64,000 bases of DNA, from the NCBI GenBank assembly GCA_009914755.4, contig CP086569.2:43360001-43424000 (forward strand), in the 5' to 3' direction. Positions within the stretch are counted from its first letter, which is position 1, and the number at the start of each line of letters is the position of its first letter. The DNA comes from the human T2T-CHM13v2.0 reference genome, Homo sapiens. The translations under genes and the position numbers were made by a program. Shown here piece after piece: positions 1 to 60,238 of this stretch. Below the pieces are notes generated by a model that was not told where the DNA came from, searched no databases, and worked only from the letters and a program-made list of their open reading frames with translations.

Positions 1-1092
1 ATTAAATATATATTATATGACTATGTTATTAATTACATGTCACATATGTTATATATTATATATTTTACATAGAATATACCGGTTACATACAATATATACT
101 ATGTTACCTATAATGTATAATTGATTACATGTAAAATAAAGAATGCAATATATTATGTATAATTTATAATATACAATATGTGGAATGTGATATATATAAC
201 ATATAATATATGATATATGATATACAGTATATGATAATTAACATACAATATATGATACCTAATATATATGGTATACAATATATATTTTATGATATGTATT
301 CTCTATGTTTTATATTCTGTTATATATAACTATTTGAAATTATATATAACTGTATAATATTTTATGTAAATATGTAATATAATATATATAACTATATAAT
401 ATATTATATATAAGTATATATTATGTTATATATACTTTTATAACATAATTTGCATAAAATATCATAATATAATATATATTATATTATTTCACATTACATA
501 ATATATATTACATATCACACAATATAAGTAACATACATAATATTATAATATAGATTATATTATGTTATATTAAATATCATATATATCATGTATCATATAT
601 CCTATAATATATATTACACATTATATAATATGTATGTTGTCTATTATGTGATATATATAACTATATATATAATTATATTATTATACATATAACTAGATAA
701 ACATGTAATTCTACATAATTTCATTTATAATATATAGAATTATATAATCATATATAATTATTTATATTCTATAAAAAATTATATCATTATATAAATTATA
801 ATATAAAAAAATTATAATATGTACTACAAATATATATATTATATATCATATATGATATAGTACCTTAGTTATATATCATAATACATATAAATGTGTATTA
901 TGTTATCTATAATTATATAATTTCATATATAAGTTGTATAATATGTATTATATATTGTCTATGTTATGTAATATATATAGTATATATAAGCTGACACAGG
1001 ATAAATATTATATACTATGACATATAAAATATATGAGGTTATATGTTACATATAAGGCATAGCACATAACATGTAATATATATCATATATAA

Positions 1093-1390
1093 TTTTTTTT
1101 TAGACAGAGTCTTGTCCTGTTGCACAGGGTGGAGTACAATGCCGCCAACTTTGCTCACTGCAACATCTGCCTCACGGGTCCAAGCGATTGTCCTCCCTCA
1201 GCCTCCCAGGTAGCTGGGACTACACCACACTGGGACTACAGCAGCTGCCACCATGCCTAGCTAATTTTTTGGATTTTTAGTAGTGACAGCGTTTCACTGT
1301 ATTGGCCAGGATGGTCTTGATCTCTTCACCTTGTGATCCCCTTGCCTTGGCCTCCAAATTTGCTGGGATTACAGGCCTGAGCCAAGATCC
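1093..1390 (-). mobile_element. Alu SINE, copy 1, full-length dimeric, old and CpG-decayed. It is a unit-internal component that was amplified together with the array.
   Basis: Poly-T (minus-strand A-tail) at the left edge, then 'agacagagtcttgtcctgttgcacagggtggagtacaatgg...cctcagcctcccaggtagctgggactaca...ttttagtagtgacagcgtttcactgtattggccaggatggtcttgatctc...tgctgggattacaggcctgagcc'. This is the reverse-complement Alu consensus with many CpG to TpG/CpA changes. Confidence 0.93.
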
Positions 1391-3489
1391 ATATTTTTTA
1401 AATGAAAAAAAATTTCAAAGGTACTCTGCTTGGTACAATAATCAAATGTATAAACTGAGGAATAAAACATAACCATGAAACCTACTTATAACTGCATATG
1501 GAAAATACAGAGGATAATTTTTTAAATAACATATTTTGAAAGCCTTAAGTAGTAATTTGAAGAGTTGGCATTAGAAAGGCCAGTATGAATATACCTTCAA
1601 AGCAGCAACACAGGTTCCCCATGAGAAAAAGCAAACTCAGGGAAAATAAAACCACAAAGGTTCAATCTCTTCTGACCTTTGAAAGACACAGCACAGACAG
1701 TGGTCCTTAGGACGAAGAGCAGGAGACCCCTAATTCCGTCACCATGGCGATAGGGCATAAACATTGCTGGGTGAGGGCACAATCCACATTGTGAGGTCCA
1801 ACTGCTGCCAGGAAGACAGGAGTGCTTTTACATATACCGAAACGTCATTGAAGGCTCAGAGTTTTATTTCAAGAACTGAATCCCAAGCCCACACGTTATT
1901 AGGCTGCGCTTCTTAAAACAAGTTATGAGATGGGAAAAAGGGCACCCACAAACATACGTATACATTATGTATATAATAATATACAGTATCATATATATAA
2001 TATATATAACCTATGTATAATATTGTTTTACATCCTGCATCTTCTGTTATATATATTGTATAAAATATAATAATTGATAATATATAAGTTTTATATATAT
2101 ACAATATGACATATAGTATATATTATAATTTATGACATATATAATATATGTTATGTATCATATATAGAATATATTATACGGTTAATATACGTATTAAATA
2201 TAAATTATACATTATATATATTATATATAATATATCTGTTATATATAATACCCATTATGCATAATATATATATTATGTCTATGTTATATATAGTATAAAA
2301 CAACACATAATAATATACAATTGTATATATAAAATGCGACATATAATATATATTATATTTTATGACATATGTAATATATATTATATATTATATATAATAC
2401 GTTGTAGGTATAATTCCTATATTAAATATATATTATAGGACTATGTTATTAATTACATGTCACATATGTTATATATTATATATTTTACATAGAATATACC
2501 GGTTACATACAATATATACTATGTTACCTATAATGTATAATTTATTACATGTAAAATAAAGATTGCAATATACTATGTATAATTTATAGTATACAATATG
2601 TGGATTGTGATATATATAACATATAATATATGATATATGATATACAGTATATGATATATAACATACAATATATGATACCTAATATATATGGTATACAATA
2701 TATATTTTATGATATGTATTCTCTATGTTTTATATTCTGTTATATATAACTATTTGAAATTATATATAACTGTATAATATTTTATGTAAATATGTAATAT
2801 AATATATATAACTATATAATATATTACATATAACTATATATTATGTTATATATAGTTTTATAACATAATTTACATAAAATATCATAATATAATATATATT
2901 ATATTATTTCATATTACATAATATATATTACATATCACCCAATATAAGTAACATACATAATATTATAATATAGATTATATTATGTTATATTAAATATCAT
3001 ATATATCATGTATCATATATTCTATAATATATATTACACATTATATAATATGTATGTTGTCTATTATGTGATATATAGAACTATATATATAATTATATTA
3101 TTATACATATAACTACATAAACATGTAATTCTACATATTTTCATTTATAATATATAGAATTATATAATCATATATAATTATTTATATTCTATAAAAAATT
3201 ATATCATTATATAAATTATAATATATAAAAATTATAATATGTACTACAAACTGATATATTATATATCATATATGATACAGTACCTTTGTTATACATCATA
3301 TAACATATAAATGTGTATTATGTCATCAATAATTATATAATTACATACATAAGATGTATAATATGTATTATATATTATATATGTTATGTAATATATATAG
3401 TATATATAAGCTGACACAGCATAAATATTATATACTATGACATATAAAATATATGAGGTTATATGTTACATATAAGGCATAGCACATAA

Positions 3490-3810
<321 letters not shown>

Positions 3811-4378
3811 ATATTTTTTAAATGAAAAAAAATTTCAAAGGTACTCTGCTTGGTACAATAATCAAATGTATAAACTGAGGAATAAAACATAACCATGAAA
3901 CCTACTTATAACTGCATACGAAAAATGCAGAGGATAATTTTTTAAATAACATATTTTGAAAGCCTTAACTAGTAATTTGAAGAGTTGGCATTTGAAAGGC
4001 CAGGATGAATATACCTTCAAAGCAGCAACACAGGTTCCCCATGAGAAAAAGCAAACTCAGGGAAAATAAAACCACAAAGGTTCAATCTCTTCTGACCTTT
4101 GAAAGACACAGCACAGACAGTGGTCCTTAGGACGAAGAGCAGGAGACCCCTAATTCCGTCACCATGGCGATAGGGCATAAACATTGCTGGGTGAGGGCAC
4201 AATCCACATTGTGACGTCCAACTGCTGCCAGGAAGACAGGAGTGCTTTTACATAGACCGAAAGGACATTGAAGGCTCAGAATTTTGTTTCAAGAACTGAA
4301 TCCCAAGCCCACACGTTATTAGGCTGCGCTTCTTAAAACAAGTTATCAGATGGGAAAAAGGGCACCCACAAACATACG
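3811..4378. other. Representative non-Alu core segment of the unit (~570 bp, ordinary complexity, CpG-poor, no recognisable repeat family). The same segment follows every Alu copy.
   Basis: It begins right after the Alu 5' end ('gccaagatcc|atattttttaaatgaaaaaaaatttcaaagg') and ends at 'gggcacccacaaacatacgta', where the AT-rich segment starts. It contains the recurrent 61 aa minus-strand ORF artefact. Confidence 0.8.
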
Positions 4379-5932
4379 TATACATTATGTATATAATAAT
4401 ATACAGTATCATATATATAATATATATAACCTATGTATAATATTGTTTTACATCCTGCATCTTATCTTATATATATTGTATAAAATATAATAATTGATAA
4501 TATATAAGTTCTATATTTATACAATATGACATATAGTATATATTATAATTTATGTCATATATAATATATGATATATATCATATATAGAATATATTATACG
4601 GTTAATATACGTATTAAATATAAATTATACATTATATATATTATATATAATATATCTCTTATATATAATACCCATTATGCATAATATATATATTATGTCT
4701 ATGTTATATATAGTATAAAACAACACATAATAATATATAATTGTATGTATAAAATGCGACATATAATAGATAATATATTTTATGACATATGTAATATATA
4801 TTATATATTATATATAATACGTTGTATGTATAATACCTATATTAAATATATATTATATGACTATGTTATTAATTACATGTCACATATGTTATATATTATA
4901 TATTTTACATAGAATATACCGGTTACATACAATATATACTATGTTACCTATAATGTACAATTTATTACATGTAAAATAAAGAATGCAATATATTATGTAT
5001 AATTTATAATATACAATATGTGGAATGTGATATATATAACATATAATATATGATATATGATATACAGTATATGATATATAACATACAATATATGATACCT
5101 AATATATATGGTCTACAATATATATTTTATGATATGTATTCTATATGTTTTATATTCTGTTATATATAACTATTTGAAATTATATATAACTGTATAATAT
5201 TTTATGTAAATATGTAATATAATATATATAACTATATAATATATTATATATAACTATATATTATGTTATATATACTTTTATAACATAATTTACTTAAAAT
5301 ATCATAATATAATATATATTATATTATTTCATATTACATAATATATATTACATATCACCCAATATAAGTAACATACATAAGATTATAATATAGATTATAT
5401 TATGTTATATTAAATATCATATATATTATGTATCATATATTCTATAATATATATTATACATTATATAATATGTATGTTGTCTATTATGTGATATATATGA
5501 CTAAATATATAATTATATTATTATACATATAACTAGATAAACATGTAATTCTACATATTTTCATTTATAATATATAGAATTATATAATCATATATAATTA
5601 TTTATATTCTATAAAAAATTATATCATTATATAAATTATAATATATAAAAATTATAATATGTACTACAAATATATATATTATATATCATATATGATATAG
5701 TACCTTTGTTATATATCATATTACATATAAATGTGTATTATGTCATCTATAATTATATAATTTCATACATAAGATGTATAATATGTATTATATATTTTAT
5801 ATGTTATGTAATATATATTGTATATATAAGATGACACAGGATAAATATTATATACTATGACATATAAAATATATGAGGTTATATGTTACATATAAGGCAT
5901 AGCACATAACATGTAATATATATCATATATAA
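4379..5932. repeat. Representative AT-rich low-complexity segment of the unit (~1.55 kb, about 85-90% A+T, dense in TA/AT steps, internally degenerate). It is present in every unit.
   Basis: Composition seen directly ('tatacattatgtatataataatatacagtatcatatatataatatatataacc...'). Loosely repeated sub-motifs ('tatgacatat...', 'ttatatatta') recur within it. It ends at the Alu poly-T. Confidence 0.85.
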
Positions 5933-6230
<298 letters not shown>

Positions 6231-8351
6231 ATATTTTTTAAATGAAAAAAAATTTCAAAGGTACTCTGCTTGGTACAATAATCAAATGTATAAACTGAGG
6301 AATAAAACATAACCATGAAACCTACTTATAACTGCATATGGAAAATACAGAGGATAATTTTTTAAATACCATATTTTGAAAGCCTTAACTAGTAATTTGA
6401 AGAGTTGGCATTTGAAAGGCCAGTATGAATATACCTTCAAAGCAGCAACACAAGTTCCCCATGAGAAAAAGCAAACTCAGGGAAAATAAAACCACAAAGG
6501 TTCAATCTCTTCTGACCTTTGAAAGACACAGCACAGACAGTGGTCCTTAGGACGAAGAGCAGGAGACCCCTAATTCCGTCACCATGGCGATAGGGCATAA
6601 ACATTGCTGGGTGAGGGCACAATCCACATTGTGAGGTCCAACTGCTGCCAGGAAGACAGGAGTGCTTTTACATAGACCGAAAGGTCATTGAAGGCTCAGA
6701 GTTTTGTTTCAAGAACTGAATCCCAAGCCCACACGTTATTAGGCTGCGCTTCTTAAAACAAGTTATGAGATGGGAAAAAGGGCACCCACAAACATACGTA
6801 TACATTATGTATATAATAATATACAGTATCATATGTATAATATATATAACCTATGTATAATATTGTTTTACATCCTGCATCTTATATTATATATATTGTA
6901 TAAAATATAATAATTGATAATATATAAGTTTTATATTTATACAATATGACATATAGTATATATTATAATTTATGACATATATAATATATGTTATATATCA
7001 TATATAGAATATATTATACGGTTAATATACGTATTAAATATAAATTATACATTATATATATTATATATAATATATCTGTTATATATAATACCCATTATGC
7101 ATAATATATATATTATGTCTATGTTATATATAGTATAAAACAACACATAATAATATATAATTGTATATATAAAATGCGACATATAATATATATTATATTT
7201 TATGACATATGTAATATATATTATATATTATATATAATACTTTGTATGTATAATACCTATATTAAATATATATTATATTACTATGTTATTAATTACATGT
7301 CACATATGTTATATATTATATATTTTACATAGAATATACCGGTTACATACAATATATACTATGTTACCTATAATGTATAATTTATTACATGTAAAATAAT
7401 GAATGCAATATATTATGTATAATTTAAAATATACAATATGTGGAATGTGATATATATAACATATAATATATGATAGAGGATATACAGTATATGATATATA
7501 ACATACAATATATGATATCTAATATATATGGTATACAATATATATTTTATGATATGTATTCTATATGTTTTATATTCTGTTATATATAACTATTTGAAAT
7601 TATATATAACTGTATAATATTTTATGTAAATATGTAATATAATATATATAACTATATAATATATTATATATAACTATATATTATGTTATATATACTTTTA
7701 TAACATAATTTACTTAAAATATCATAATATAATATATACTATATTATTTCATATTACATAATATATATTACATATCACCCAATATAAGTAACATACATAA
7801 GATTATAATATAGATTATATTATGTTACATTAAATATCATATATATCATGTATCATATATTCTATAATATATATATACATTATATAATATGTATGTTGTC
7901 TATTATGTGATATATATAACTATAAATATAATTATATTATTATACATATAACTAGATAAACATGTAATTCTACATATTTTCATTTATAATATATAGAATT
8001 ATATAATCATATATAATTATTTATATTCTATAAAAAATTATATCATTATATAAATTATAATATATAAAAATTATAATATGTACTACAAACAGATATATTA
8101 TATATCATATATGATATAGTACCTTTGTTATATATCATATTACATATAAATGTGTATTATGTCATCTATAATTATATAATTTCATATATAAGTTGTATAA
8201 TATGTATTATATATTTTATATGTTATGTAATATATATTGTATATGTAAGATGACACAGGATAAATATTATATACTATGACATATAAAATATATGAGGTTA
8301 TATGTTACATATAAGGCATAGCACATAACATGTAATATATATCATCTATAA

Positions 8352-8649
<298 letters not shown>

Positions 8650-10745
8650 ATATTTTTTAAATGAAAAAAAATTTCAAAGGTACTCTGCTTGGTACAATAA
8701 TCAAATGTATAAACTGAGGAATAAAACATAACCATGAAACCTACTTATAACTGCATACGGAAAATACAGAGGATAATTTTTTAAATAACATATTTTGAAA
8801 GCCTTAACTAGTAATTTGAAGAGTTGGCATTTGAAAGGCCAGTATGAATATACCTTCAAAGCAGCAACACAGGTTCCCCATGAGAAAAAGCAAACTCAGG
8901 GAAAATAAAACCACAAAGGTTCAATCTCTTCTGACCTTTGAAAGACACAGCACAGACAGTGGTCCTTAGGACGAAGAGCAGGAGAACCCTAATTCCGTCA
9001 CCATGGCGATAGGGCATAAGCATTGCTGGGTGAGGGCACAATCCACATTGTGAGGTCCAACTGCTGCCAGGAAGACAGGAGTGCTATTACATACACCGAA
9101 AGGTCATTGAAGGCTCAGAGTTTTGTTTCAAGAACTGAATCCCAAGCCCACACGTTATTAGGCTGCGCTTCTTAAAACAAGTTATGAGATGGGAAAAAGG
9201 GCACCCACAAACATATGTATACATTATGTATATAATAATATACAGTATCATATATATAATATATATAACCTATGTATAATATTGTTTTACATCCTGCATC
9301 TTATATTATATATATTGTATAAAATATAATAATTGATAATATATGTTTCATATTTATACAATATGACATATAGATATATTATAATTTATGACATATATAA
9401 TATATGTTATATATCATATATAGAATATATTATACGGTTAATATACGTATTAAATATAAATTATATATTATATATATTATATATAATATATCTGTTATAT
9501 ATAATACCCATTATGCATAATATATATATTATGTCTATGTTATATATAGTATAAAACAACATATAATAATATATAATTGTATATATAAAATGCGACATAT
9601 AATATATATTATATTTTATGACATATGTAATATATATTATATATTATATATAATACGTTGTAGGTATAATACCTATATTAAATATATATTATATGACTAT
9701 GTTATTAATTACATGTCACATATGTTATATAGTATATATTTTGCATAGAATATACCGGTTACATACAATATACACTATGTTACCTATAATGAATAATTTA
9801 TTACATGTAAAATAAAGAATGCAATATATGATGTATAATTTATAATATACAATATGTGGAATGTGATATATATAACATATAATATATGATATATGATATA
9901 CAGTATATGATATATAACATACAATATATGATTCCTAATATATATGGTATACAATATATATTTTATGATATGTATTCTCTATGTTTTATATTCTGTTATA
10001 TATAACTATTTGAAATTATATATAACTGTATAATATTTTATGTAAATATGTAATATAATATATATAACTATATAATATATTATATATAACTATATATTAT
10101 GTTATATATACTTTTATAAAATAAATTACATAAAATATCATAATATAATATATAATATATTATTTCATATTACATAATATATATTACATATCACCCAATA
10201 TAAGAAACATACATAATATTATAATATAGATTATATTATGTTATATTAAATATCATATATATCATGTGTCATATATTCCATAATATATTTTATACATTAC
10301 ATAATATGTATGTTGTCTATTATGTGATATATATAACTATATATATAATTATATTATTATACATATAACTAGATAAACATGTAATTCTACATATTTTCAT
10401 TTTTAATATATAGAATTATATAATCATATATAATTATTTATATTCTATAAAAAATTATATCATTATATAAATTATAATATATAAAAATTATAATATATAC
10501 TACAAAAATATATATTATATATCATATATGATATAGTACCTTTGTTATATATCATAATACATATAAATGTGTATTATGTCATCTATAATTATATAATTTC
10601 ATATATAAGATGTATAATATGTATTATATATTATATATGATATGTAATATATATAGTATATATAAGATGACACAGGATAAATATTATATACTATGACATA
10701 TAAAATATATGAGGTTATATGTTACATATAAGGCATAGCACATAA

Positions 10746-11066
<321 letters not shown>

Positions 11067-13165
11067 ATATTTTTTAAATGAAAAAAAATTTCAAAGGTAC
11101 TCTGCTTGGTACAATAATCAAATGTATAAACTGAGGAATAAAACATAACCATGAAACCTACTTATAACTGCATATGGAAAATACAGAGGATAATTTTTTA
11201 AATAACATATTTTGAAAGCCTTAACTAGTAATTTGAAGAGTTGGCATTTGAAAGGCCAGTATGAATATACCTTCAAAGCAGCAACACAGGTTCCCCATGA
11301 GAAAAAGCAAACTCAGGGAAAATAAAACCACAAAGGTTCAATCTCTTCTGACCTTTGAAAGACACAGCACAGACAGTCGTCCTTAGGACGAAGAGCAGGA
11401 GACCCCTAATTCCGTCACCATGGCGATAGGGCATAAGCATTGCTGGGTGAGGGCACAATCCACATTGTGAGGTCCAACTGCTGCCAGGAAGACAGGAGTG
11501 CTTTTACATAGACCGAAAGGTCATTGAAGGCTCAGAGTTTTGTTTCAAGAACTGAATCCCAAGCCCTCACGTTATTAGGCTGCGCTTCTTAAAACAAGTT
11601 ATGAGATGGGAAAAAGGGCACCCACAAACATACGTATACATTATGTATATAATAATATACAGTATCATATATATAATATATATAACCTATGTATAATATT
11701 GTTTTACATCCTGCATCTTATATTATATATATTGTCTAAAATATAATAATTGATAATATATAAGTTTTATATTTATACAATATGACATATAGTATATATT
11801 ATAATTTATGACATATATAATATATGTTATATATTATATATAGAATATATTATACGGTTAATATACGTATTAAATATAAATTATACATTATATATATTAT
11901 ATATAATATATCTGTTATATATAATACCCATTATGCATAATATATATATTATGTCTATGTTATATATAGTGTAAAACAACATATAATAATATATAATTGT
12001 ATATATAAAATGCGACATGTAATATATATTATATTTTATGACATATGTAATATATATTATATATTATATATAATACGTTGTATGTATAATACCTATATTA
12101 AATATATATTATATGACTATGTTATTAATTACATGTCACATGTGTTATATAGTATATATTTTGAATAGAATATACCGGTTACATACAATATATACTATGT
12201 TACCTATAATGTATAATTTATTATATGTAAAATAAAGAATGCAATATATTATGTATAATTTATAATATACAATATGTGGAATGTGATATATATAACATAT
12301 AATATATGATATATGATATACAGTATATGATATATAACATACAATATATGATACCTAATATATATGGTGTACAATATATATTTTATGATATGTATTCTCT
12401 ATGTTTTATATTCTGTTATATATAACTATTTAAAATTATATATAAATGTATAATATTTTATGTAAATATGTAATATAATATATATAACTATATAATGTAT
12501 TATATATAACTATATATTATGTTATATATACTTTTATAAAATAAATTACATAAAATATCATAATATAATATATATTATATTATTTCATATTACTTAAGAT
12601 ATATTACATATCACCCAATATAAGTAACATACATAATATTATAATATAGATTATATTATGTTATATTAAATATCATATATATCATGTATCATATATTCCA
12701 TAATATATTTTATACATTATATAATATGTATGTTGTCAATTATGTGATATATATAACTTTATATATAATTATATTATTATACATATAACTAGATAAACAT
12801 GTAATTCTACATATTTTCATTTATAATATATAGAATTATATAATCATATATAATTATTTATATTCTATAAAAAATTATATCATTATATAAATTATAATAT
12901 ATAAAAATTATAATATATACTACAAATATATGTATTATATATCATATATGATATAGTACCTTTGTTATATATCATAATACATATAAATGTGTATTATGTT
13001 ATCTATAATTATATAATTTCATATATAAGATGTATAATATGTATTATATATTATATATGATATGTAATATATATAGTATGTATAAGATGACACAGGATAA
13101 ATATTATATACTATGACATATAAAATATATGAGGTTATATGTTACATATAAGGCATAGCACATAA

Positions 13166-13487
<322 letters not shown>

Positions 13488-15586
13488 ATATTTTTTAAAT
13501 GAAAAAAAGTTTCAAAGGTACTCTGCTTGGTACAATAATCAAATGTATAAACTGAGGAATAAAACATAAGCATGAAACCTACTTATAACAGCATATGGAA
13601 AATACAGAGGATAATTTTTTAAATAACATATTTTGAAAGCCTTAACTAGTAATTTGAAGAGTTGGCATTTGAAAGGCCAGTATGAATATACCTTCAAAGC
13701 AGCAACACAGGTTCCCCATGAGAAAAAGCAAACTCAGGGAAAATAAAACCACAAAGGTTCAATCTCTTCTGACCTTGGAAAGACACAGCACAGACAGTGG
13801 TCCTTAGGACGAAGAGCAGGAGACCCCTAATTCCGTCACCATGGCGATAGGGCATAAACATTGCTGGGTGAGGGCACAATCCACATTGTGAGGTCCAACT
13901 GCTGCCAGGAAGACAGGAGTGCTTTTACATAGACCGAAAGGTCATTGAAGGCTCAGAGTTTTGTTTCAAGCACTGAATCCCAAGCCCACACGTTATTAGG
14001 CTGCGCTTCTTAAAACAAGTTATGAGATGGGAAAAAGGGCACCCACAAACATACGTATACATTATGTATATAATAATATACAGTATCATATATATAATGT
14101 ATATAACCTATGTATAATATTGTTTTACATCCTGCATCTTATATTATATATATTGTATAAAATAAAATAATTGATAATATATATGTTTTATATTTATACA
14201 ATATGACATATAGTATATATTATAATTTATGACATATATTATATATGTTATATATCATATATGGAATATATTATACGGTTAATATTCGTATTAAATATAA
14301 ATTATACATTATATATATTATATATAATATATCTGTTATATATAATACGCATTATGCATAATATATATATTATGTCTATGTTATATATAGTATAAAACAA
14401 CATATAATAATATATAATTGTATATATAAAATGCGACATATAATATATATTATATTTTATGACATATGTAATATATATTATATATTATATATAATACGTT
14501 GTATGTATAATACCTATATTAAATATATATTATATGACTATGTTATTAATTACATGTCACATATGTTATATATTATATATTTTACATAGAATATGCCGGT
14601 TACATACAATATATACTATGTTACCCATAATGAATAATTTATTACATGTAAAATAAAGAATGCAATATATTATGTATAATTTATAATATACAATATGTGG
14701 AATGTGATACATATAACATATAATATATGATATATGATATACAGTATATGATATATAACATACAATATATGATACCTAATATATATGGAATATAATATAT
14801 ATTTTATGATATGTATCCTATATGTTTTATATTCTGTTATATATAACTATTTGAAATTATATATAACTGTGTAATATTTTATGTAAATATGTAATATAAT
14901 ATATACAACTATATAATATATTATATATAACTATATATTATGTTATATATACTTTTATAACATAATTTACATAAAATATCATAATAAAATATATGTTATA
15001 TTATTTCACATTACGTAATGTATATTACATATCACCCAATATAAGTAACATACATAATATTATAATATAGATTATATTATGTTATATTAAATCTCATATA
15101 TATCATGTATCATATATTCTATAATATATATTATACATTATATAATATGTATGTTGTCTATTATGTGAGATATATAACTGTATATATAATTATATTGTTA
15201 TACATATAACTAGATAAACATGTAATTCTACATATTTTCCTTTATAATATATAGAATTATATAATCATATATAATTATTTATATTCTATAAAAAATTATA
15301 TCATTATATAAATTATAATATTTAAAAACTATAATATGTACTACAAATATATATGTTATATATCATATATGATATAGTACCTTTGTTATATATCATAATA
15401 CATATAAATGTGTATTATGTTATCTATAATTATATAATTTCATTTATAAGATGTATAATATGTATTATATATTATATACGTTATGTAATATATATAGTAT
15501 ATTTAACCTGACACAGGATAAATATTATATACTATGACATATAAAATATATGAGGTTATATGTTACATATAAGGCATAGCATATAA

Positions 15587-15908
<322 letters not shown>

Positions 15909-18007
15909 ATATTTTTTAAATGAAAAAAAATTTCAAAGGTACTCTGCTTGGTACAATAATCAAATGTATAAACTGAGGAATAAAACATAACCATGAAACC
16001 TACTTATGACAGCATATGGAAAATGCAGAGGATAATTTTTTAAATAACATATTTTGAAAGCCTTACCTAGTAATTTGAAGAGTTGGCATTTGAAAGGCCA
16101 GTATGAATATACCTTCAAAGCAGCAACACAGGTTCCCCATGAGAAAAATCAAACTCAGGGAAAATAAAACCACAAAGGTTCAATCTCTTCTGACCTTTGA
16201 AAGACACAGCACAGACAGTGGTCCTTAGGACGAAGAGCAGGAGACCCCTAATTCCGTCACCATGGCGATAGGGCATAAACATTGCTGGGTGAGGGCACAA
16301 TCCACATTGTGAGGTCCAACTGCTGCCAGGAAGACAGGAGTGCTTTTACATAGACCGAAAGGTCATTGAAGGCTCAGAGTTTTGTTTCAAGCACTGAATC
16401 CCAAGCCCACACGTTATTAGGCTGCGCTTCTTAAAACAAGTTATGAGATGGGAAAAAGGGCACCCACAAACATACGTATATATTATGTATATAATAATAT
16501 ACAGCATCATATATATAATATATATAACTTATGTATAATATTGTTTTACATCCTGCATCTTCTGTTATATATATTGTATAAAATATAATAATTGATAATA
16601 TATAAGTTTTATATATATACAATATGACATATAGTATATATTATAATTTATGACATATATAATATATGTTATGTATCATATATAGAATATATTATACGGT
16701 TAATATACGTATTAAATATAAATTATACATTATATATATTATATATAATATATCTGTTATATATAATACCCATTATGCATAATATATATATTATGTCTAT
16801 GTTATATATAGTATAAAACAACACATAATAATATACAATTGTATATATAAAATGCGACATATAATATATATTATATTTTATGACATATGTAATATATATT
16901 ATATATTATATATAATACGTTGTAGGTATAATTCCTATATTAAATATATATTATAGGACTATGTTATTAATTACATGTCACATATGTTATATATTATATA
17001 TTTTACATAGAATATACCGGTTACATACAATATATACTATGTTACCTATAATGTATAATTTATTACATGTAAAATAAAGATTGCAATATACTATGTATAA
17101 TTTATAGTATACAATATGTGGATTGTGATATATATAACATATAATATATGATATATGATATACAGTATATGATATATAACATACAATATATGATACCTAA
17201 TATATATGGTATACAATATATATTTTATGATATGTATTCTCTATGTTTTATATTCTGTTATATATAACTATTTGAAATTATATATAACTGTATAATATTT
17301 TATGTAAATATGTAATATAATATATATAACTATATAATATATTATATATAACTATATATTATGTTATATATAGTTTTATAACATAATTTACATAAAATAT
17401 CATAATATAATATATATTATATTATTTCATATTACATAATATATATTACATATCACCCAATATAAGTAACATACATAATATTATAATATAGATTATATTA
17501 TGTTATATTAAATATCATATATATCATGTATCATATATTCTATAATATATATTACACATTATATAATATGTATGTTGTCTATTATGTGATATATAGAACT
17601 ATATATATAATTATATTATTATACATATAACTACATAAACATGTAATTCTACATATTTTCATTTATAATATATAGAATTATATAATCATATATAATTATT
17701 TATATTCTATAAAAAATTATATCATTATATAAATTATAATATATAAAAATTATAATATGTTTTACAAATATATATATTATATATCATATATGATATAGTA
17801 CCTTTGTTATATATCATAATACATATAAATGTGTATTATGTTATCTATAATTATATAAATTCATATATAAGATATATAATATGTATCATATATTATATAT
17901 GTTATGTAATATATATAGTATATATAAGCTGACACAGGATAAATATTATATACTATGACATATAAAATATATGAGGTTATATGTTACATATAAGGCATAG
18001 CACATAA

Positions 18008-18328
<321 letters not shown>

Positions 18329-20427
18329 ATATTTTTTAAATGAAAAAAAATTTCAAAGGTACTCTGCTTGGTACAATAATCAAATGTATAAACTGAGGAA
18401 TAAAACATAACCATGAAACCTACTTATAACTGCATGTGGAAAATACAGAGGATAATTTTTTAAATAACATATTTTGAAAGCCTTAACTAGTAATTTGAAG
18501 AGTTGGCATTTGAAAGGCCAGTATGAATATACCTTCAAAGCAGCAACACAGGTTCCCCATGAGGAAAAGCAAACTCAGGGAAAATAAAACCACAAAGGTT
18601 CAATCTCTTCTGACCTTTGAAAGACACAGCACAGACAGTGGTCCTTAGGACGAAGAGCAGGAGACCCCTAATTCCGTCACCATGGCGATAGGGCATAAAC
18701 ATTGCTGGGTGAGGGCACAATCCACATTGTGAGGTCCAACTGCTGCCAGGAAGACAGGACTGCTTTTACATAGACCGAAAGGTCATTGAAGGCTCAGAGT
18801 TTTGTTTCAAGAACTGAATCCCAAGCCCACACGTTATTAGGCTGCGCTTCTTAAAACAGGTTATGAGATGGGAAAAAGGGCACCCACAAACATACGTATA
18901 CATTATGTATATAATAATATACAGTATCATATATATAATATATATAACCTATGTATAATATTGTTTTACATCCTGCATCTTATGTTATATATATTGTATA
19001 AAATATAATAATTGATAATATATAAGTATTATATTTATACAATATGGCATATAGTATATATTATAATTTATGACATATATAATATATGTTATATATCATA
19101 TATATAATATATTATATGGTTAATATACGTATTAAATATAAATTTTACATTATATATATTATATAAAATATATCTGATATATATAATACCCATTATGCAT
19201 AATATATATATTATGTCTATGTTATATATAGTATAAAACAACACATAATAATATATAATTCTATATATAAAATGCGACATATAATATATATTATATTTTA
19301 CGACATATGTAATATATATTATATATTATATATAATACGTTGTAGGTATAATTCCTATATTAAATATATATTATAGGACTATGTTATTAATTACATGTCA
19401 CATATGTTATATATTATATATTTTACATAGAATATACCGGTTACATACAATATATACTATGTTACCTATAATGTATAATTTATTACATGTAAAATAAAGA
19501 TTGCAATATATTATGTATAATTTATAGTATACAATATGTGGATTGTGATATATATAACATATAATATATGATATATGATATACAGTATATGATATATAAC
19601 ATGCAATATATGATACCTAATATATATGGTATACAATATATATTTTATGATATGTATTCTATATGTTTTATATTCTGTTATATATAACTATTTGAAATTA
19701 TATATAACTGTATAATATTTTATGTAAATATGTAATATAATATATATAACTATATAATATATTATATATAACTATATATTATGTTATATATAGATTTATA
19801 ACATAATTTACATAAAATATCATAATATAATATATATTATATTATTTCATATTACATAATATATATTACATATCACCCAATATAAGTAACATACATAATA
19901 TTATAATATAGATTATATTATGTTATATTAAATATCATATATATCATGTATCATATATTCTATAATATATATTACACATTATATAATATGTATGTTGTCT
20001 ATTATGTGATATATAGAACTATATATATAATTATATTATTATACATATAACTACATAAACATGTAATTCTAAATATTTTCATTTATAATATATAGAATTA
20101 TATAATCATATATAATTATTTATATTCTATAAAAAATTATATCATTATATAAATTATAATATATAAAAATTATAATATGTACTACAAATATATATATTAT
20201 ATATCATATATGATATAGTACCTTTGTTATATATCATAATACATATAAATGTGTATTATGTTATCTATAATTATATAAATTCATATATAAGATGTATAAT
20301 ATGTATCATATATTATATATGTTATGTAATATATATAGTATATATAAGCTGACACAGGATAAATATTATATACTATGACATATAAAATATATGAGGTTAT
20401 ATGTTACATATAAGGCATAGCACATAA

Positions 20428-20748
<321 letters not shown>

Positions 20749-22843
20749 ATATTTTTTAAATGAAAAAAAATTTCAAAGGTACTCTGCTTGGTACAATAAT
20801 CAAATGTATAAACTGAGGAATAAAACATAACCATGAAACCTACTTATAACTGCATATGGAAAATACAGAGGATAATTTTTTAAATAACATATTTTGAAAG
20901 CCTTAACTAGTAATTTGAAGAGTTGGTATTTGAAAGGCCAGTATGAATATACCTTCAAAGCAGCAACACAGGTTCCCCATGAGGAAAAGCAAACTCAGGG
21001 AAAATAAAACCACAAAGGTTCAATCTCTTCTGACCTTTGAAAGACACAGCACAGACAGTGGTCCTTAGGACGAAGAGCAGGAGACCCCTAATTCCGTCAC
21101 CATGGCGATAGGGCATAAACATTGCTGGGTGAGGGCACAATCCACATTGTGAGGTCCAACTGCTGCCAGGAAGACAGGAGTGCTTTTACATAGACCGAAA
21201 GGTCATTGAAGGCTCAGAGTTTTGTTTCAAGAACTGAATCCCAAGCCCACACGTTATTAGGCTGCGCTTCTTAAAACAGGTTATGAGATGGGAAAAAGGG
21301 CACCCACAAACATACGTATACATTATGTATATAATAATATACAGTATCATATATATAATATATATAACCTATGTATAATATTGTTTTACATCCTGCATCT
21401 TATGTTATATATATTGTATAAAATATAATAATTGATAATATATAAGTATTATATTTATACAATATGGCATATAGTATATATTATAATTTATGACATATAT
21501 AATATATGTTATATATCATATATAGAATATATTATACGGTTAATATACGTATTAAATATAAATTTTACATTATATATATTATATATAATATATCTGATAT
21601 ATATAATACCCATTATGCATAATATATATATTATGTCTATGTTATATATAGTATAAAACAACACATAATAATATATAATTGTATATATAAAATGCGACAT
21701 ATAATATATATTATATTTTACGACATATGTAATATATATTATATATTATATATAATACGTTGTAGGTATAATTCCTATATTAAATATATATTATAGGACT
21801 ATGTTATTAATTACATGTCACATATGTTATATATTATATATTTTACATAGAATATACCGGTTACATACAATATATACTATGTTACCTATAATGTATAATT
21901 TATTACATGTAAAATAAAGAATGCAATATATTATGTATAATTTATAATATACAATATGTGGAATGTGATATATATAACATATAATATATGATATATGATA
22001 TACAGTATATGATATATAACATACAATGTATGATACCTAATATATATGGTATACAATATATATTTTATGATATGTATTCTATATGTTTTATATTCTGTTA
22101 TATATAACTATTTGAAATTATATATAACTGTATAATATTTTATGTAAATATGTAATATAATATATAACTATATAATATATTATATATAACTATATATTAT
22201 GTTATATATACTTTTATAACATAATTTACATAAAATATCATAATATAATATATATTATATTATTTCATATTACATAATATATATTACATATCACCCAATA
22301 TAAGTAACATACATAATATTATAATATAGATTATATTATGTTATATTAAATATCATATATATCATGTATCATATATTCTATAGTATATATGATACATTAT
22401 ATAATATGTATGTTGTCTATTATGTGATATATATAACTATATATAATTATATTATTATACATATTACTAGATAAACATGTAATTCTACATATTTTCATTT
22501 ATAATATATAGAATTATATAATCATATATAATTATTTATATTCTATAAAAAATTATATCATTATATAAATTATAATATATAAAAATTATAATATGTACTA
22601 CAAATATATATATTATATATCATATATGATATAGTACCTTTGTTATATATCATAATACATATAAATGTGTATTATGTTATCTATAATTATATAATTTCAT
22701 ATATAAGATGTATAATATGTATCATATATTATATATGTTATGTAATATATATAGTATATATAAGATGACACAGGATAAATATTATATACTATGACATATA
22801 AAATATATGAGGTTATATGTTACATATAAGGCATAGCACATAA

Positions 22844-23164
<321 letters not shown>

Positions 23165-25263
23165 ATATTTTTTAAATGAAAAAAAATTTCAAAGGTACTC
23201 TGCTTGGTACAATAATCAAATGTATAAACTGAGGAATAAAACATAACCATGAAACCTACTTATAACTGCATGTGGAAAATACAGAGGATAATTTTTTAAA
23301 TAACATATTTTGAAAGCCTTAACTAGTAATTTGAAGAGTTGGCATTTGAAAGGCCAGTATGAATATACCTTCAAAGCAGCAACACAGGTTCCCCATGAGG
23401 AAAAGCAAACTCAGGGAAAATAAAACCACAAAGGTTCAATCTCTTCTGACCTTTGAAAGACACAGCACAGACAGTGGTCCTTAGGACGAAGAGCAGGAGA
23501 CCCCTAATTCCGTCACCATGGCGATAGGGCATAAACATTGCTGGGTGAGGGCACAATCCACATTGTGAGGTCCAACTGCTGCCAGGAAGACAGGACTGCT
23601 TTTACATAGACCGAAAGGTCATTGAAGGCTCAGAGTTTTGTTTCAAGAACTGAATCCCAAGCCCACACGTTATTAGGCTGCGCTTCTTAAAACAGGTTAT
23701 GAGATGGGAAAAAGGGCACCCACAAACATACGTATACATTATGTATATAATAATATACAGTATCATATATATAATATATATAACCTATGTATAATATTGT
23801 TTTACATCCTGCATCTTATGTTATATATATTGTATAAAATATAATAATTGATAATATATAAGTATTATATTTATACAATATGGCATATAGTATATATTAT
23901 AATTTATGACATATATAATATATGTTATATATCATATATATAATATATTATATGGTTAATATACGTATTAAATATAAATTTTACATTATATATATTATAT
24001 AAAATATATCTGATATATATAATACCCATTATGCATAATATATATATTATGTCTATGTTATATATAGTATAAAACAACACATAATAATATATAATTCTAT
24101 ATATAAAATGCGACATATAATATATATTATATTTTACGACATATGTAATATATATTATATATTATATATAATACGTTGTAGGTATAATTCCTATATTAAA
24201 TATATATTATAGGACTATGTTATTAATTACATGTCACATATGTTATATATTATATATTTTACATAGAATATACCGGTTACATACAATATATACTATGTTA
24301 CCTATAATGTATAATTTATTACATGTAAAATAAAGATTGCAATATATTATGTATAATTTATAGTATACAATATGTGGATTGTGATATATATAACATATAA
24401 TATATGATATATGATATACAGTATATGATATATAACATGCAATATATGATACCTAATATATATGGTATACAATATATATTTTATGATATGTATTCTATAT
24501 GTTTTATATTCTGTTATATATAACTATTTGAAATTATATATAACTGTATAATATTTTATGTAAATATGTAATATAATATATATAACTATATAATATATTA
24601 TATATAACTATATATTATGTTATATATAGTTTTATAACATAATTTACATAAAATATCATAATATAATATATATTATATTATTTCATATTACATAATATAT
24701 ATTACATATCACCCAATATAAGTAACATACATAATATTATAATATAGATTATATTATGTTATATTAAATATCATATATATCATGTATCATATATTCTATA
24801 ATATATATTACACATTATATAATATGTATGTTGTCTATTATGTGATATATAGAACTATATATATAATTATATTATTATACATATAACTACATAAACATGT
24901 AATTCTAAATATTTTCATTTATAATATATAGAATTATATAATCATATATAATTATTTATATTCTATAAAAAATTATATCATTATGTAAATTATAATATAT
25001 AAAAATTATAATATGTACTACAAATATATATATTATATATCATATATGATATAGTACCTTTGTTATATATCATAATACATATAAATGTGTATTATGTTAT
25101 CTATAATTATATAAATTCATATATAAGATGTATAATATGTATCATATATTATATATGTTATGTAATATATATAGTATATATAAGCTGACACAGGATAAAT
25201 ATTATATACTATGACATATAAAATATATGAGGTTATATGTTACATATAAGGCATAGCACATAA

Positions 25264-25584
<321 letters not shown>

Positions 25585-27679
25585 ATATTTTTTAAATGAA
25601 AAAAAATTTCAAAGGTACTCTGCTTGGTACAATAATCAAATGTATAAACTGAGGAATAAAACATAACCATGAAACCTACTTATAACTGCATATGGAAAAT
25701 ACAGAGGATAATTTTTTAAATAACATATTTTGAAAGCCTTAACTAGTAATTTGAAGAGTTGGTATTTGAAAGGCCAGTATGAATATACCTTCAAAGCAGC
25801 AACACAGGTTCCCCATGAGGAAAAGCAAACTCAGGGAAAATAAAACCACAAAGGTTCAATCTCTTCTGACCTTTGAAAGACACAGCACAGACAGTGGTCC
25901 TTAGGACGAAGAGCAGGAGACCCCTAATTCCGTCACCATGGCGATAGGGCATAAACATTGCTGGGTGAGGGCACAATCCACATTGTGAGGTCCAACTGCT
26001 GCCAGGAAGACAGGAGTGCTTTTACATAGACCGAAAGGTCATTGAAGGCTCAGAGTTTTGTTTCAAGAACTGAATCCCAAGCCCACACGTTATTAGGCTG
26101 CGCTTCTTAAAACAGGTTATGAGATGGGAAAAAGGGCACCCACAAACATACGTATACATTATGTATATAATAATATACAGTATCATATATATAATATATA
26201 TAACCCATGTATAATATTGTTTTACATCCTGCATCTTATATTATATATATTGTATAAAATATAATAATTGATAATATATAAATTTTATATTTATACAATA
26301 TGACATATAGTATATATTATAATTTATTACATATATAATATATGTTATATATCATATATAGAATATATTATACGGTTAATATACGTATTAAATATAAATT
26401 ATACATTATATATATTATATATAATATATCTGCTATATATAATACCCATTGTGCATAATATATATATTATGTCTATGTTATATATAGTATAAAACAACAT
26501 ATAATAATATATAATTGTATATATAAAACGCGACATATAATATATATTATATTTTATGACATATGTAATATATATTATATATTATATATAATACGTTGTA
26601 TGTATAATACCTATATTAAATATAAATTATATGACTATGTTATTAATTACATGTCACATATGTTATATATTATATATTTTACATAGAATATACCGGTTAC
26701 ATACAATATATACTATGTTACCTATAATGTATAATTTATTACATGTAAAATAAAGAATGTAATATATTACGTATAATTTATAATATACAATATGTGGAAT
26801 GTGATATATATAACATATAATATATGATATATGATATACAGTATATGATATATAACATACAATATATGATACCTAATATATATGGTATACAATATATATT
26901 TTATGATATGTATTCTATATGTTTTATATTCTGATATATATAACTATTTGAAATTATATATAACTGTATAATATTTTATGTAAATATGTAATATAATATA
27001 TAACTATATAATATATTATATATAACTATATATTATGTTATATATACTTTTATAACATAATTTACATAAAATATCATAATATAATATATATTATATTATT
27101 TCATATTACATAATATATATTACATATCACCCAATATAAGTAACATACATAATATTATAATATAGATTATATTATGTTATATTAAATATCATATATATCA
27201 TGTATCATATATTCTATAATATATATGATACATTATATAATATGTATGCTGTCTATTATGTGATATATATAACTATATATAATTATATTATTATACATAT
27301 TACTAGATAAACATGTAATTCTACATATTTTCATTTATAATATATAGAATTATATAATCATATATAATTATTTATATTCTATAAAAAATTATATCATTAT
27401 ATAAATTATAATATATAAAAATTATAATATGTACTACAAATATATATATTATATATCATATATGATATAGTACCTTTGTTATATATCATAATACATATAA
27501 ATGTGTATTATGTTATCTATAATTATATAATTTCATATATAAGATGTATAATATGTATTATATATTATATATGTTATGTAATATATATAGTATATATAAG
27601 ATGACACAGGATAAATATTATATACTATGACATATAAAATATATGAGGTTATATGTTACATATAAGGCATAGCACATAA

Positions 27680-28000
<321 letters not shown>

Positions 28001-30095: not shown

Positions 30096-30416
<321 letters not shown>

Positions 30417-32511: not shown

Positions 32512-32832
<321 letters not shown>

Positions 32833-34925: not shown

Positions 34926-35246
<321 letters not shown>

Positions 35247-37339: not shown

Positions 37340-37660
<321 letters not shown>

Positions 37661-39755: not shown

Positions 39756-40076
<321 letters not shown>

Positions 40077-42171: not shown

Positions 42172-42492
<321 letters not shown>

Positions 42493-44585: not shown

Positions 44586-44906
<321 letters not shown>

Positions 44907-47818: not shown

Positions 47819-48139
<321 letters not shown>

Positions 48140-50238: not shown

Positions 50239-50559
<321 letters not shown>

Positions 50560-52658: not shown

Positions 52659-52979
<321 letters not shown>

Positions 52980-57497: not shown

Positions 57498-57818
<321 letters not shown>

Positions 57819-59917: not shown

Positions 59918-60238
<321 letters not shown>

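What the first reader, a model, noticed from the sequence alone, without database searches (positions are those of the whole stretch)
4379..5932. More than 40 kb of periodic, extremely AT-rich flexible DNA: candidate fragile or replication-stress site and nucleosome-organising sequence
About 1.55 kb of 85-90% A+T sequence, dense in TA steps and imperfect inverted repeats, recurs every 2.4 kb. AT-rich flexibility islands of much smaller total size underlie rare and common fragile sites (for example the AT-rich minisatellite expansions at FRA16B and FRA10B, and the flexibility peaks in FRA16D and FRA3B). Such tracts are known to stall replication forks and to form hairpin and cruciform structures. 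The regular alternation with a GC-normal ~870 bp block (Alu plus core) would also impose phased nucleosome or S/MAR-like organisation. This is inference from composition. It would also explain why such a locus is hard to sequence or clone.
Basis: inference. Interest (0 to 1): 0.5.

Follow-up and report, generated by a model that had tools for sequence, protein, structure and literature searches.

The report
Human Y-chromosome satellite DYZ2 (HSat1B)
The window is an internal stretch of a long-known human satellite, DYZ2/HSat1B, most likely from the Y-chromosome heterochromatin; its AT-rich block really is unusually flexible DNA, but nothing here or in the papers read shows it to be a fragile site or a nucleosome organiser.

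Summary
Positions 4379-5932 are a 1,554-bp block of 86% A+T. It recurs 26 times at a period of 2,414-2,421 bp (one 3,233-bp variant) and alternates with an 866-bp block of 43% GC, made of an antisense Alu and a 574-bp core.

This is the published human satellite HSat1B/DYZ2, not a new element. The unit length, the three-part architecture, the ~290-bp 5'-truncated Alu about 18% diverged, the 'ACATACG' junction, 24% GC and 1 CpG per 143 bp all match the descriptions from the T2T-Y assembly and the 43-Y-chromosome study. Both published DYZ2 probe primers match all 26 units.

The fragile-site reading is only partly supported:
- **For:** every 100-bp window of the block exceeds the TwistFlex 13.7 degree threshold, and predicted strand opening is confined to the block. 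Related modules flank the 22q11 translocation hotspot, and DYZ2 units are gained or lost about once per Y transmission.
- **Against:** there is no long palindrome. Inverted repeats are no denser than the dinucleotide content predicts. The published folding threshold for fragility is not met. There is no 10-bp nucleosome signal. No common fragile site is catalogued on the Y.

Verdict: already known, low interest.

The parts
1..64000 (.). Uninterrupted head-to-tail HSat1B/DYZ2 array: 25 complete units plus two partial ones. Neither array edge lies in the window, and there is no DYZ1/HSat3.
   Evidence: 26 anchors at a 2,414-2,421 bp period. Units are 96.7-99.96% identical, mean 98.0%. Overall GC is 24.3% with 1 CpG per 143 bp.
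3513..3804 (-). Alu subunit of the example unit: 292 bp, lacking about 12 nt at its 5' end, with its A-tail abutting the preceding AT block.
   Evidence: Local alignment to an AluY consensus recalled from memory covers consensus positions 13-289 at 82% identity. All 26 units give 81-83%. Published values are 290 +/- 2 bp, about 20% diverged and 5'-truncated.
3805..4378 (+). HSATI core of the unit: 574 bp, GC-normal and the least variable part.
   Evidence: The published HSATI part is 566 +/- 16 bp. Diversity among units is 0.012, against 0.023 in the AT block.
3881..4328 (.). In-silico amplicon (448 bp) of the published HSat1B/DYZ2 FISH-probe primers.
   Evidence: The primers come from the T2T-Y supplement. 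Each matches 26 of 26 units, 25 exactly, in convergent orientation, with 0 matches expected by chance.
4372..4378 (+). 'ACATACG' heptamer at the junction of HSATI and the AT-rich block.
   Evidence: Read directly in the sequence. The anchor GGGCACCCACAAACATACG is found in 26 of 26 units. The 43-Y-chromosome study describes this heptamer at this junction of its 2,420-bp consensus.
4379..5932 (.). The AT-rich block of the finding: 1,554 bp, 86.0% A+T, rich in alternating AT/TA steps and poor in A-tracts.
   Evidence: Composition, dinucleotide ratios and TwistFlex are. Internal repeats are degenerate; the best is a 230-bp unit in 1.9 copies at 76%. Predicted opening peaks fall at about 5163-5380 and 5493-5712.
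44617..47849 (.). Variant 3,233-bp unit whose AT block is 2,367 bp long.
   Evidence: Its spacing is 3,233 bp. The extra 813 bp (46125-46937) is an older internal duplication of the AT block at about 88-90% identity. The published Yq12 unit range is 1,275-3,719 bp, with length variation lying in the AT-rich part.
25295..44616 (.). Locally homogenised sub-block, units 11-18, with unit lengths of 2,414 or 2,416 bp.
   Evidence: These units are 98.9-99.8% identical to each other. The shorter lengths come from lost AT/TA dinucleotides at about 4705, 5228 and 5503 in unit coordinates.
50270..64000 (.). Recent three-unit (7,259-bp) higher-order duplication: units 21-23 against units 24-26.
   Evidence: Identity is 99.65% over 6,472 bp at a lag of three units, against about 98.9-99.0% at lags of one or two units.

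Best explanation
The window is a 64-kb internal piece of a human HSat1B (DYZ2, formerly HSATI) satellite array, most probably one of the DYZ2 blocks of the Yq12 heterochromatin.

**What the block is.** The 1.55-kb AT-rich block is one of three parts of the 2.42-kb composite unit: AT-rich block, ancient 5'-truncated Alu, and HSATI core.

**What the sequence shows.** The array is kept homogeneous by tandem duplication. One example is a three-unit duplicate; another is a 19-kb sub-block that is more than 99% uniform. The AT block is the fastest-changing part. It carries every length change, namely lost AT/TA dinucleotides and one 813-bp internal duplication.

**What is inferred from published work.** Unequal sister-chromatid exchange and gene conversion between units drive this turnover.

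**What is not shown.** No coding or regulatory role is evident. The block's flexibility and easy melting follow from its alternating AT/TA composition. Those properties may make it hard to replicate, but that is not shown.
For: - **Unit length:** 12 of 25 units are exactly 2,420 bp, the published consensus length, and the rest are 2,414-2,421 bp plus one of 3,233 bp.
- **Architecture:** the three parts and their sizes match the published description. Alu 292 bp at 82% identity to AluY, against 290 +/- 2 bp and about 20% diverged. HSATI 574 bp against 566 +/- 16 bp. AT block 86% A+T against more than 85%.
- **Junction:** the 'ACATACG' heptamer is present.
- **Composition:** 24.3% GC and 1 CpG per 143 bp, against the published 24% and 1 per 150 bp.
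- **Primers:** both published DYZ2 probe primers hit every unit.
- **Homogeneity:** mean identity between units is 98.0%, against 'over 98%' reported for Yq12.
- **Independent copies:** thirteen of 14 independent copies, found as human contamination in bacterial assemblies, are 97.7-99.2% identical to the window unit and carry the same Alu variant where an Alu is present. This is as expected if the window is of the most abundant type, since 14 Mb of DYZ2 lies on the Y.
- **Turnover pattern:** all indels lie in the AT block. Published de novo structural variants of 2,416-4,839 bp each remove or add whole DYZ2 units, and 2,416 bp is a unit length seen in the window.
Against: - No reference genome could be searched, so chromosomal placement is not shown.
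- HSat1B also occurs on the acrocentric short arms and chromosome 10.
- Only 48% of units here are exactly 2,420 bp, against 93.7% reported for Yq12. Units 1-7 are only about 97% alike. The array is therefore atypical: it may be peripheral, from another Y lineage, or not on the Y.
- No DYZ1 boundary lies in the window.
Confidence: 0.93

Rival explanations
1. It is the same satellite family, but the array lies on an acrocentric short arm (chromosome 13, 14, 15, 21 or 22) or on chromosome 10 rather than on Yq12.
For: HSat1B is present there in smaller amounts. Fewer units are exactly 2,420 bp here than reported for Yq12, 48% against 93.7%. The left third of the window is only about 97% homogeneous.
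Against: [quoted passage not shown] Low-identity allelic alignments (below 95%) on the proximal acrocentric short arms come mostly from HSat1B on chr15 and chr21, whereas units here average 98%. A unit length of 2,416 bp equals a de novo Yq12 variant size. Contaminant copies from unrelated laboratories are of the same type at 98-99% identity.
Confidence: 0.15
2. One reading: the AT blocks act as a fragile or replication-stress site. Forks stall at flexible, easily melted, hairpin-prone AT/TA-rich DNA, which causes breaks and rearrangements.
For: - Every window of the block is a TwistFlex flexibility peak, well above the composition expectation.
- AT/TA dinucleotides make up 57% of steps, close to the FRA16C element that creates a fragile site when moved elsewhere.
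- Predicted opening is confined to the block.
- Relatives of the module sit at the 22q11 translocation hotspot.
- 15% of Strand-seq libraries show sister-chromatid exchange in Yq12.
- Yq12 inversion breakpoints lie at AT-rich/Alu junctions.
Against: - The folding criterion for fragility is not met, and AT-block segments fold no better than Alu/HSATI segments.
- Folding is only 2.4 SD better than dinucleotide shuffles.
- Inverted-repeat density matches dinucleotide shuffles. The longest perfect arm is 15 nt, and there is no palindrome.
- Each block is 1.55 kb, below the class of 3 kb or more linked to fragile bands.
- No common fragile site is listed on the Y.
- The published authors attribute the high mutability to gene conversion and unequal exchange between near-identical units, which needs no fork stalling.
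Confidence: 0.25
3. The 2.42-kb alternation of AT-rich and GC-normal DNA imposes phased nucleosomes or scaffold attachment, giving the array an architectural role in heterochromatin.
For: The compositional alternation is strict and regular. The roughly 1:1 ratio of DYZ1 to DYZ2 units across men has been read as a sign of constraint.
Against: AA/TT/TA and TA steps show no 10-bp periodicity beyond shuffles, with 20-85% of shuffles reaching the observed power. A-tracts are depleted, with AA/TT at 0.45x expectation. The AT block is the most variable part in both sequence and length, which argues against a precise positioning code.
Confidence: 0.08

Closest known systems
HSat1B / DYZ2 (HSATI; the 'male-specific 2.47 kb tandem repeat with one Alu per unit', GenBank X00470)
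   Same: Unit length, three-part architecture, Alu length and divergence, junction heptamer, GC and CpG content, homogeneity, and exact matches to the published probe primers.
   Different: Nothing essential differs. This stretch has more 2,414 and 2,416-bp units than the reported Yq12 average and one 3,233-bp variant unit, all within the published range.
AT-dinucleotide-rich sequences of common fragile sites (FRA16C, FRA16D, FRA3B flexibility peaks)
   Same: Twist flexibility is above 13.7 degrees throughout the block, and AT/TA dinucleotide content is high, 57% against 66%.
   Different: Each block is 1.55 kb rather than 3 kb or more. Predicted single-strand folding does not reach the published fragility threshold. 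The setting is constitutive heterochromatin rather than large late-replicating genes. No cytogenetic fragility is recorded on the Y.
Rare fragile sites FRA16B and FRA10B (expanded AT-rich minisatellites)
   Same: Extreme A+T content and a tandem array. The comparison rests on my own knowledge of these sites.
   Different: Those are expansions of short units: about 33 bp at FRA16B and about 42 bp at FRA10B, both figures from my own knowledge. Here the AT block has no short-period array. The best internal tandem repeat is 230 bp in 1.9 copies at 76%, and the repeating unit is 2.42 kb.
22q11 translocation-breakpoint sequence with its palindromic AT-rich repeat (PATRR22)
   Same: It is built from the same HSATI/Alu/AT-rich module and is reported as 85% identical to Human Satellite I.
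   Different: Its breakage-prone part is a long near-perfect AT-rich palindrome. The DYZ2 block has none: the longest inverted pair has 96-nt arms at 76% complementarity, 283 nt apart, and perfect arms reach at most 15 nt.
HSat1A (formerly 'SAR'; 42-bp AT-rich satellite)
   Same: Both come from the same classical AT-rich density fraction and both are very AT-rich.
   Different: It is an unrelated sequence family with a 42-bp unit and no Alu or HSATI part.

Membership tests
HSat1B / DYZ2 | Tandem unit of about 2.4-2.5 kb (consensus 2,420 bp) | tested here: met
   Spacings are 2,414-2,421 bp, 12 of 25 units are exactly 2,420 bp, and one variant is 3,233 bp.
HSat1B / DYZ2 | One ancient 5'-truncated AluY-like subunit per unit, about 290 bp and about 20% diverged | tested here: met
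   The subunit is 292 bp, aligns to consensus positions 13-289, and is 81-83% identical in all 26 units. The AluY consensus was recalled from memory.
HSat1B / DYZ2 | Extremely AT-rich region (more than 85% A+T) of variable length | tested here: met
   A+T is 85.3-86.5% over 1,548-2,367 bp, and all length variation lies here.
HSat1B / DYZ2 | HSATI core sequence of about 566 bp, with 'ACATACG' at its junction with the AT block | tested here: met
   The core is 574 bp. Both published primers, which lie in this core, match 26 of 26 units. The heptamer is at 4372-4378, and its anchor is found in 26 of 26 units.
HSat1B / DYZ2 | About 24% GC and about 1 CpG per 150 bp | tested here: met
   The window has 24.25% GC and 1 CpG per 143 bp (published values).
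HSat1B / DYZ2 | Full-length alignment to the reference consensus (Dfam HSATI or the published 2,420-bp consensus) | not testable with these tools
   No human reference or Dfam model is available. As a substitute, 14 independent contaminant copies are 97.6-99.2% identical over their whole DYZ2 length.
Yq12 location (DYZ2 in the strict sense) | Array interleaved with DYZ1/HSat3 blocks on distal Yq | not testable with these tools
   The window holds no array edge and no pentameric satellite. Placement is inferred from abundance and homogeneity only.
Common-fragile-site AT-dinucleotide-rich sequence | TwistFlex flexibility above 13.7 degrees in 100-bp windows | tested here: met
   100% of windows in the block pass, with a mean of 14.9 degrees. 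The Alu+HSATI block has 0%. The threshold is; the dinucleotide values were recalled from memory.
Common-fragile-site AT-dinucleotide-rich sequence | At least 7 consecutive 300-nt segments with folding energy below -40 kcal/mol | tested here: not met
   16 of 425 segments pass and the longest run is 2. ViennaRNA DNA parameters were used rather than Mfold, so absolute energies may differ somewhat.
Common-fragile-site AT-dinucleotide-rich sequence | Length of 3 kb or more (the class enriched in fragile bands) | tested here: not met
   Blocks are 1,548-1,555 bp, and the variant block is 2,367 bp.
Common or rare fragile site | Recurrent gaps or breaks on metaphase chromosomes under replication stress or AT-binding drugs | not testable with these tools
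   The genome-wide catalogue lists none on chromosome Y, although part of that work used female cells.
FRA16B / FRA10B type | Expanded short-unit (tens of bp) AT-rich minisatellite | tested here: not met
   Tandem Repeats Finder reports only a 230-bp unit in 1.9 copies at 76% inside the block. Direct-repeat families are 63-86% degenerate.
Palindromic AT-rich repeat (PATRR) | Near-perfect palindrome of several hundred bp with little or no spacer | tested here: not met
   The longest inverted pair has 96-nt arms at 76% complementarity with a 283-nt spacer. Perfect arms reach at most 15 nt. Inverted repeats with a spacer of 4 nt or less number 5, against 3.2 +/- 1.8 in dinucleotide shuffles.

The most novel reading that the evidence does not exclude
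The thousands of 1.5-kb AT/TA-rich flexibility peaks in DYZ2 may make Yq12 a large cryptic replication-stress-sensitive region. It would have been missed because it was unassembled and because fragile-site catalogues partly used female cells. Yq12 holds about 2,700-6,700 such blocks per Y, a reported 14 Mb of DYZ2 in T2T-Y. On this reading, fork stalling in these blocks, rather than homology alone, drives three things: the roughly one whole-unit DYZ2 gain or loss per transmission, sister-chromatid exchange in Yq12, and the length polymorphism of Yq12.
Probability: 0.2. Interest if true: 0.5.

Novelty: already known. Interest (0 to 1): 0.12.

Why it matters
As a discovery it matters little. DYZ2 has been known since the 1980s and is fully described in the complete Y-chromosome assemblies.

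Three practical points follow:
- A scan should recognise this 2.42-kb Alu/HSATI/AT-rich unit as HSat1B and mask it.
- The same sequence contaminates many bacterial assemblies, 14 species representatives in the collection searched here.
- The physical premise of the finding is real and measurable. If anyone wants to ask whether AT/TA-rich satellite DNA is hard to replicate in vivo, complete Y assemblies now make DYZ2 against DYZ1 a natural internal comparison.

Tried and rejected
- **Rfam scan of the whole window** at gathering thresholds found nothing. The Alu is apparently too diverged to reach the signal-recognition-particle RNA family's threshold.
- **Paper search for DYZ2 primers** returned mostly unrelated papers. 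The primers were found instead in the T2T-Y supplement.
- **Babcock et al. 2007**, the paper linking the 22q11 AT-rich repeats to Yq12, is not held. I relied on papers that summarise it.
- **The single-stranded-DNA mapping preprint** gives no HSat1B-specific result in its main text.
- **The T2T replication-timing paper** covers CHM13, which has no Y. Its HSat1 statement (mid S phase) concerns the chr13p array, so the replication timing of DYZ2 remains untested here.
- **The ape sex-chromosome paper** says nothing about HSat1B.
- **A search on distamycin-induced undercondensation of Y heterochromatin** found nothing usable.
- **An ancient two-fold subrepeat in the AT block** was considered and rejected. 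Self-alignments of about 66% identity occur in every register and on both strands, which is low-complexity similarity.
- **A palindrome or cruciform reading** was considered and rejected.
- **A nucleosome-positioning code** was considered and rejected.

Full report
**Observation.**
A 400-bp composition profile shows strict alternation across the whole 64 kb. About 1.5 kb at 11-17% GC alternates with about 0.9 kb at 37-45% GC. Two anchor sequences, one at the start of the Alu and one at the end of the core, each occur 26 times. Their spacings are 2,414-2,421 bp, apart from one of 3,233 bp.

The AT-rich block delimited from these anchors falls exactly on the finding's coordinates: 4379-5932, 1,554 bp, 86.0% A+T. 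The 25 complete blocks total 39,618 bp. The partial blocks at the two ends bring the AT-rich total above 40 kb. The intervening block is 866 bp at about 43% GC in all copies. Aligned units are 96.7-99.96% identical, mean 98.0%.

**Identity.**
The unit's anatomy matches a published satellite. The complete Y-chromosome paper (10.1101/2022.12.01.518724) describes DYZ2, also called HSat1B, as a tandem repeat of about 2.5 kb with three parts. [quoted passage not shown] Most copies are over 98% identical.

The study of 43 Y chromosomes (10.1101/2022.12.01.518658) adds detail:
- a 2,420-bp consensus;
- a heptamer 'ACATACG' at the junction of the HSATI part and the AT-rich part;
- an Alu of 290 +/- 2 bp that is 5'-truncated;
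- an HSATI part of 566 +/- 16 bp;
- an AT-rich part of variable length;
- 24% GC and 1 CpG per 150 bp.

The window shows the following:
- units of 2,420 bp in 12 of 25 cases;
- ACATACG at 4372-4378;
- an antisense Alu of 292 bp covering consensus positions 13-289, at 81-83% identity in all 26 units (AluY consensus recalled from memory);
- a 574-bp core;
- 24.25% GC and 1 CpG per 143 bp.

As a direct sequence test I used the two PCR primers with which the T2T consortium made its HSat1B/DYZ2 FISH probe (supplement). Each matches all 26 units, 25 of them exactly. The primers are convergent and 448 bp apart, and no matches are expected by chance. I regard membership in HSat1B/DYZ2 as established.

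**Placement.**
No human reference can be searched with these tools, so the chromosome is inferred.
[quoted passage not shown] There are 14 Mb on Yq12 and smaller amounts on the acrocentric short arms and chromosome 10.
- Low-identity allelic alignments (below 95%) on the proximal acrocentric short arms come mostly from HSat1B on chr15 and chr21. The units here average 98%.
- A scan of one genome per bacterial species found the core sequence in 14 assemblies. All are human contamination, 97.6-99.2% identical to the window's unit over their DYZ2 length. The T2T-Y authors predicted this.
- Thirteen of the 14 are of the window's type. One, L005, has a distinctly less diverged Alu at 87.7%.

Against Yq12, only 48% of units here are exactly 2,420 bp, compared with 93.7% reported. 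Units 1-7 are also less homogeneous. That would fit a peripheral array, where divergence is reported to be higher, or another location. I put Yq12 at about 0.8.

**How the array evolves.**
Variation among units is highest in the AT block (diversity 0.023), intermediate in the Alu (0.0195) and lowest in HSATI (0.012). Every length difference lies in the AT block. The 2,416-bp and 2,414-bp classes arise from two or three lost AT/TA dinucleotides. The 3,233-bp unit carries an 813-bp internal duplication of the AT block that is itself about 10% diverged.

Units 11-18 form a sub-block more than 99% uniform. Units 21-23 and 24-26 are 99.65% identical at a lag of three units, against about 98.9% at lags of one or two, which indicates a recent 7.26-kb duplication. 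This fits the published picture of local expansion, unequal exchange and gene conversion between units. That picture includes about one de novo structural variant per Y transmission, each removing or adding whole DYZ2 units of 2,416-4,839 bp.

I used the twist-angle values of Sarai et al. (recalled from memory) with the published procedure of 100-bp windows and a peak threshold of 13.7 degrees (PMC6765107). Every window of the AT block is a flexibility peak. The mean is 14.9 degrees and the minimum 13.74. No window of the Alu+HSATI block is a peak.

Mononucleotide shuffles of the block give 12.47 +/- 0.13 degrees, with 1.2% of windows above threshold. The flexibility therefore exceeds what the base composition gives. 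The cause is that AT and TA steps are 1.5-fold enriched while AA and TT are about 2.2-fold depleted. AT+TA steps make up 57% of all steps. The 3.4-kb FRA16C element that created a fragile site when moved to the HPRT locus has 66%, and its control 11%.

**Duplex destabilisation.**
I used a single-bubble approximation of Benham's model, with parameters recalled from memory. It puts all predicted opening inside the AT block from a superhelical density of about -0.04. The peaks are near 5163-5380 and 5493-5712, and there is no opening in the Alu or HSATI parts. With copolymer energetics this outcome is inevitable for any 86% A+T block. It does not distinguish this block from other AT-rich DNA.

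**Hairpins and cruciforms.**
- Perfect inverted repeats (arms >=10 nt, spacer <=100) number 59 and cover 87% of the block. That is ten times a mononucleotide shuffle but only about 1.2 SD above dinucleotide-preserving shuffles (42.7 +/- 13.9).
- Cruciform-type repeats with a spacer of 4 nt or less number 5, against 3.2 +/- 1.8 in shuffles.
- The longest perfect arm is 15 nt.
- The longest imperfect pair has 96-nt arms at 76% complementarity, 283 nt apart.
- A 1-kb stretch folds 2.4 SD better than dinucleotide shuffles.
- The published folding criterion for aphidicolin-type fragility is at least seven consecutive 300-nt segments below -40 kcal/mol. Applied with ViennaRNA DNA parameters, 16 of 425 segments pass and the longest run is 2. 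AT-block segments fold at -28 to -37 kcal/mol, no better than Alu/HSATI segments at -24 to -38.

The T2T-Y authors also report that HSat1B is enriched in inverted and mirror repeats. My result says this enrichment is a consequence of dinucleotide content, not of a designed palindrome.

**Nucleosome organisation.**
AA/TT, TA and AA/TT/TA steps show no power at 9.8-10.8 bp beyond shuffles; 20-85% of shuffles reach the observed value. A-tracts are depleted. Nothing in the sequence supports a positioning code beyond the coarse 2.42-kb compositional alternation.

**What the papers say about fragility.**
A genome-wide analysis of aphidicolin-inducible common fragile sites lists three on the X and none on the Y. 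Part of the underlying cytogenetics used female cells, and Yq12 was unassembled at the time (PMC3371707).

The HSATI/Alu/AT-rich module is reported to be the origin of the 22q11 translocation-breakpoint sequence, at 85% identity to Human Satellite I. The fragile part there is a long AT-rich palindrome (PMC5906017), which DYZ2 lacks.

Several findings are compatible with replication trouble in the AT block:
- 15% of Strand-seq libraries show exchanges in Yq12.
- The fixed Yq12 inversions break at AT-rich/Alu junctions.

The authors explain these findings by exchange between near-identical repeats, which requires no fork stalling. Replication timing of DYZ2 could not be checked, because the available T2T timing study used a genome without a Y. 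That Yq12 replicates late is classical cytogenetics, cited from my own knowledge.

**Verdict.**
The feature is real and accurately described, but it is a textbook human satellite. The structural premises (hairpin or cruciform beyond composition, nucleosome code) are not. The biological claim of a fragile site is untested and has no cytogenetic support.

Novelty: already known. The most novel reading that remains open is that DYZ2 makes Yq12 a cryptic replication-stress-sensitive region and that this drives its turnover. I give that about 0.2.

Noticed in passing
window 44617-47849 (extra segment 46125-46937): One unit is 3,233 bp long because its AT block carries an 813-bp internal duplication. 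The duplicate is about 10-12% diverged from its source, far more than neighbouring units differ from each other. It is therefore an old variant unit that persists inside an otherwise homogenised array.
   Followed up: partly
window 50270-64000: Units 21-23 and 24-26 are 99.65% identical at a lag of three units (7,259 bp), against about 98.9% at lags of one or two. This indicates a recent three-unit duplication, a local higher-order repeat.
   Followed up: yes
window 25295-44616: Units 11-18 are 98.9-99.8% identical and share 2-bp AT/TA deletions, giving unit lengths of 2,416 and 2,414 bp. Overall only 12 of 25 units are exactly 2,420 bp, against 93.7% reported for Yq12. This array is therefore atypical in its unit-length mix.
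   Followed up: partly
Alu subunits of all units (e.g. window 3513-3804): Variants among the 25 Alu copies are mostly transversions: 10 transitions against 31 transversions, 12 of the latter G<->C. The AT block shows about 1:1 and HSATI 21:29. Numbers are small and the cause is unexplained.
   Followed up: no
L001-L014 (bacterial genome assemblies): Fourteen species-representative 'bacterial' assemblies contain DYZ2 sequence at 97.6-99.2% identity to the window. They include Mycobacterium, Bifidobacterium, Streptomyces, Azospirillum and Sphingobium. Most are whole short contigs that are nothing but human satellite, which means contamination.
   Followed up: yes
L005 5897-6920 (Nostocoides japonicum T1-X7, NZ_HF570958.1, 5.16-Mb scaffold): A 1,024-bp DYZ2 fragment sits between two runs of N inside a large bacterial scaffold, so a human contaminant contig was scaffolded into the genome. 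Its Alu is clearly less diverged from AluY than all window units and the other contaminants (87.7% against 81-83%). This suggests a different HSat1B subfamily, possibly not from the Y.
   Followed up: partly
window, second half of each GC-normal block (e.g. 4001-4400): There is a strong A-over-T strand asymmetry (AT skew +0.20 to +0.25) in the distal half of the Alu+HSATI block in every unit, against about 0 elsewhere. It was not examined further.
   Followed up: no
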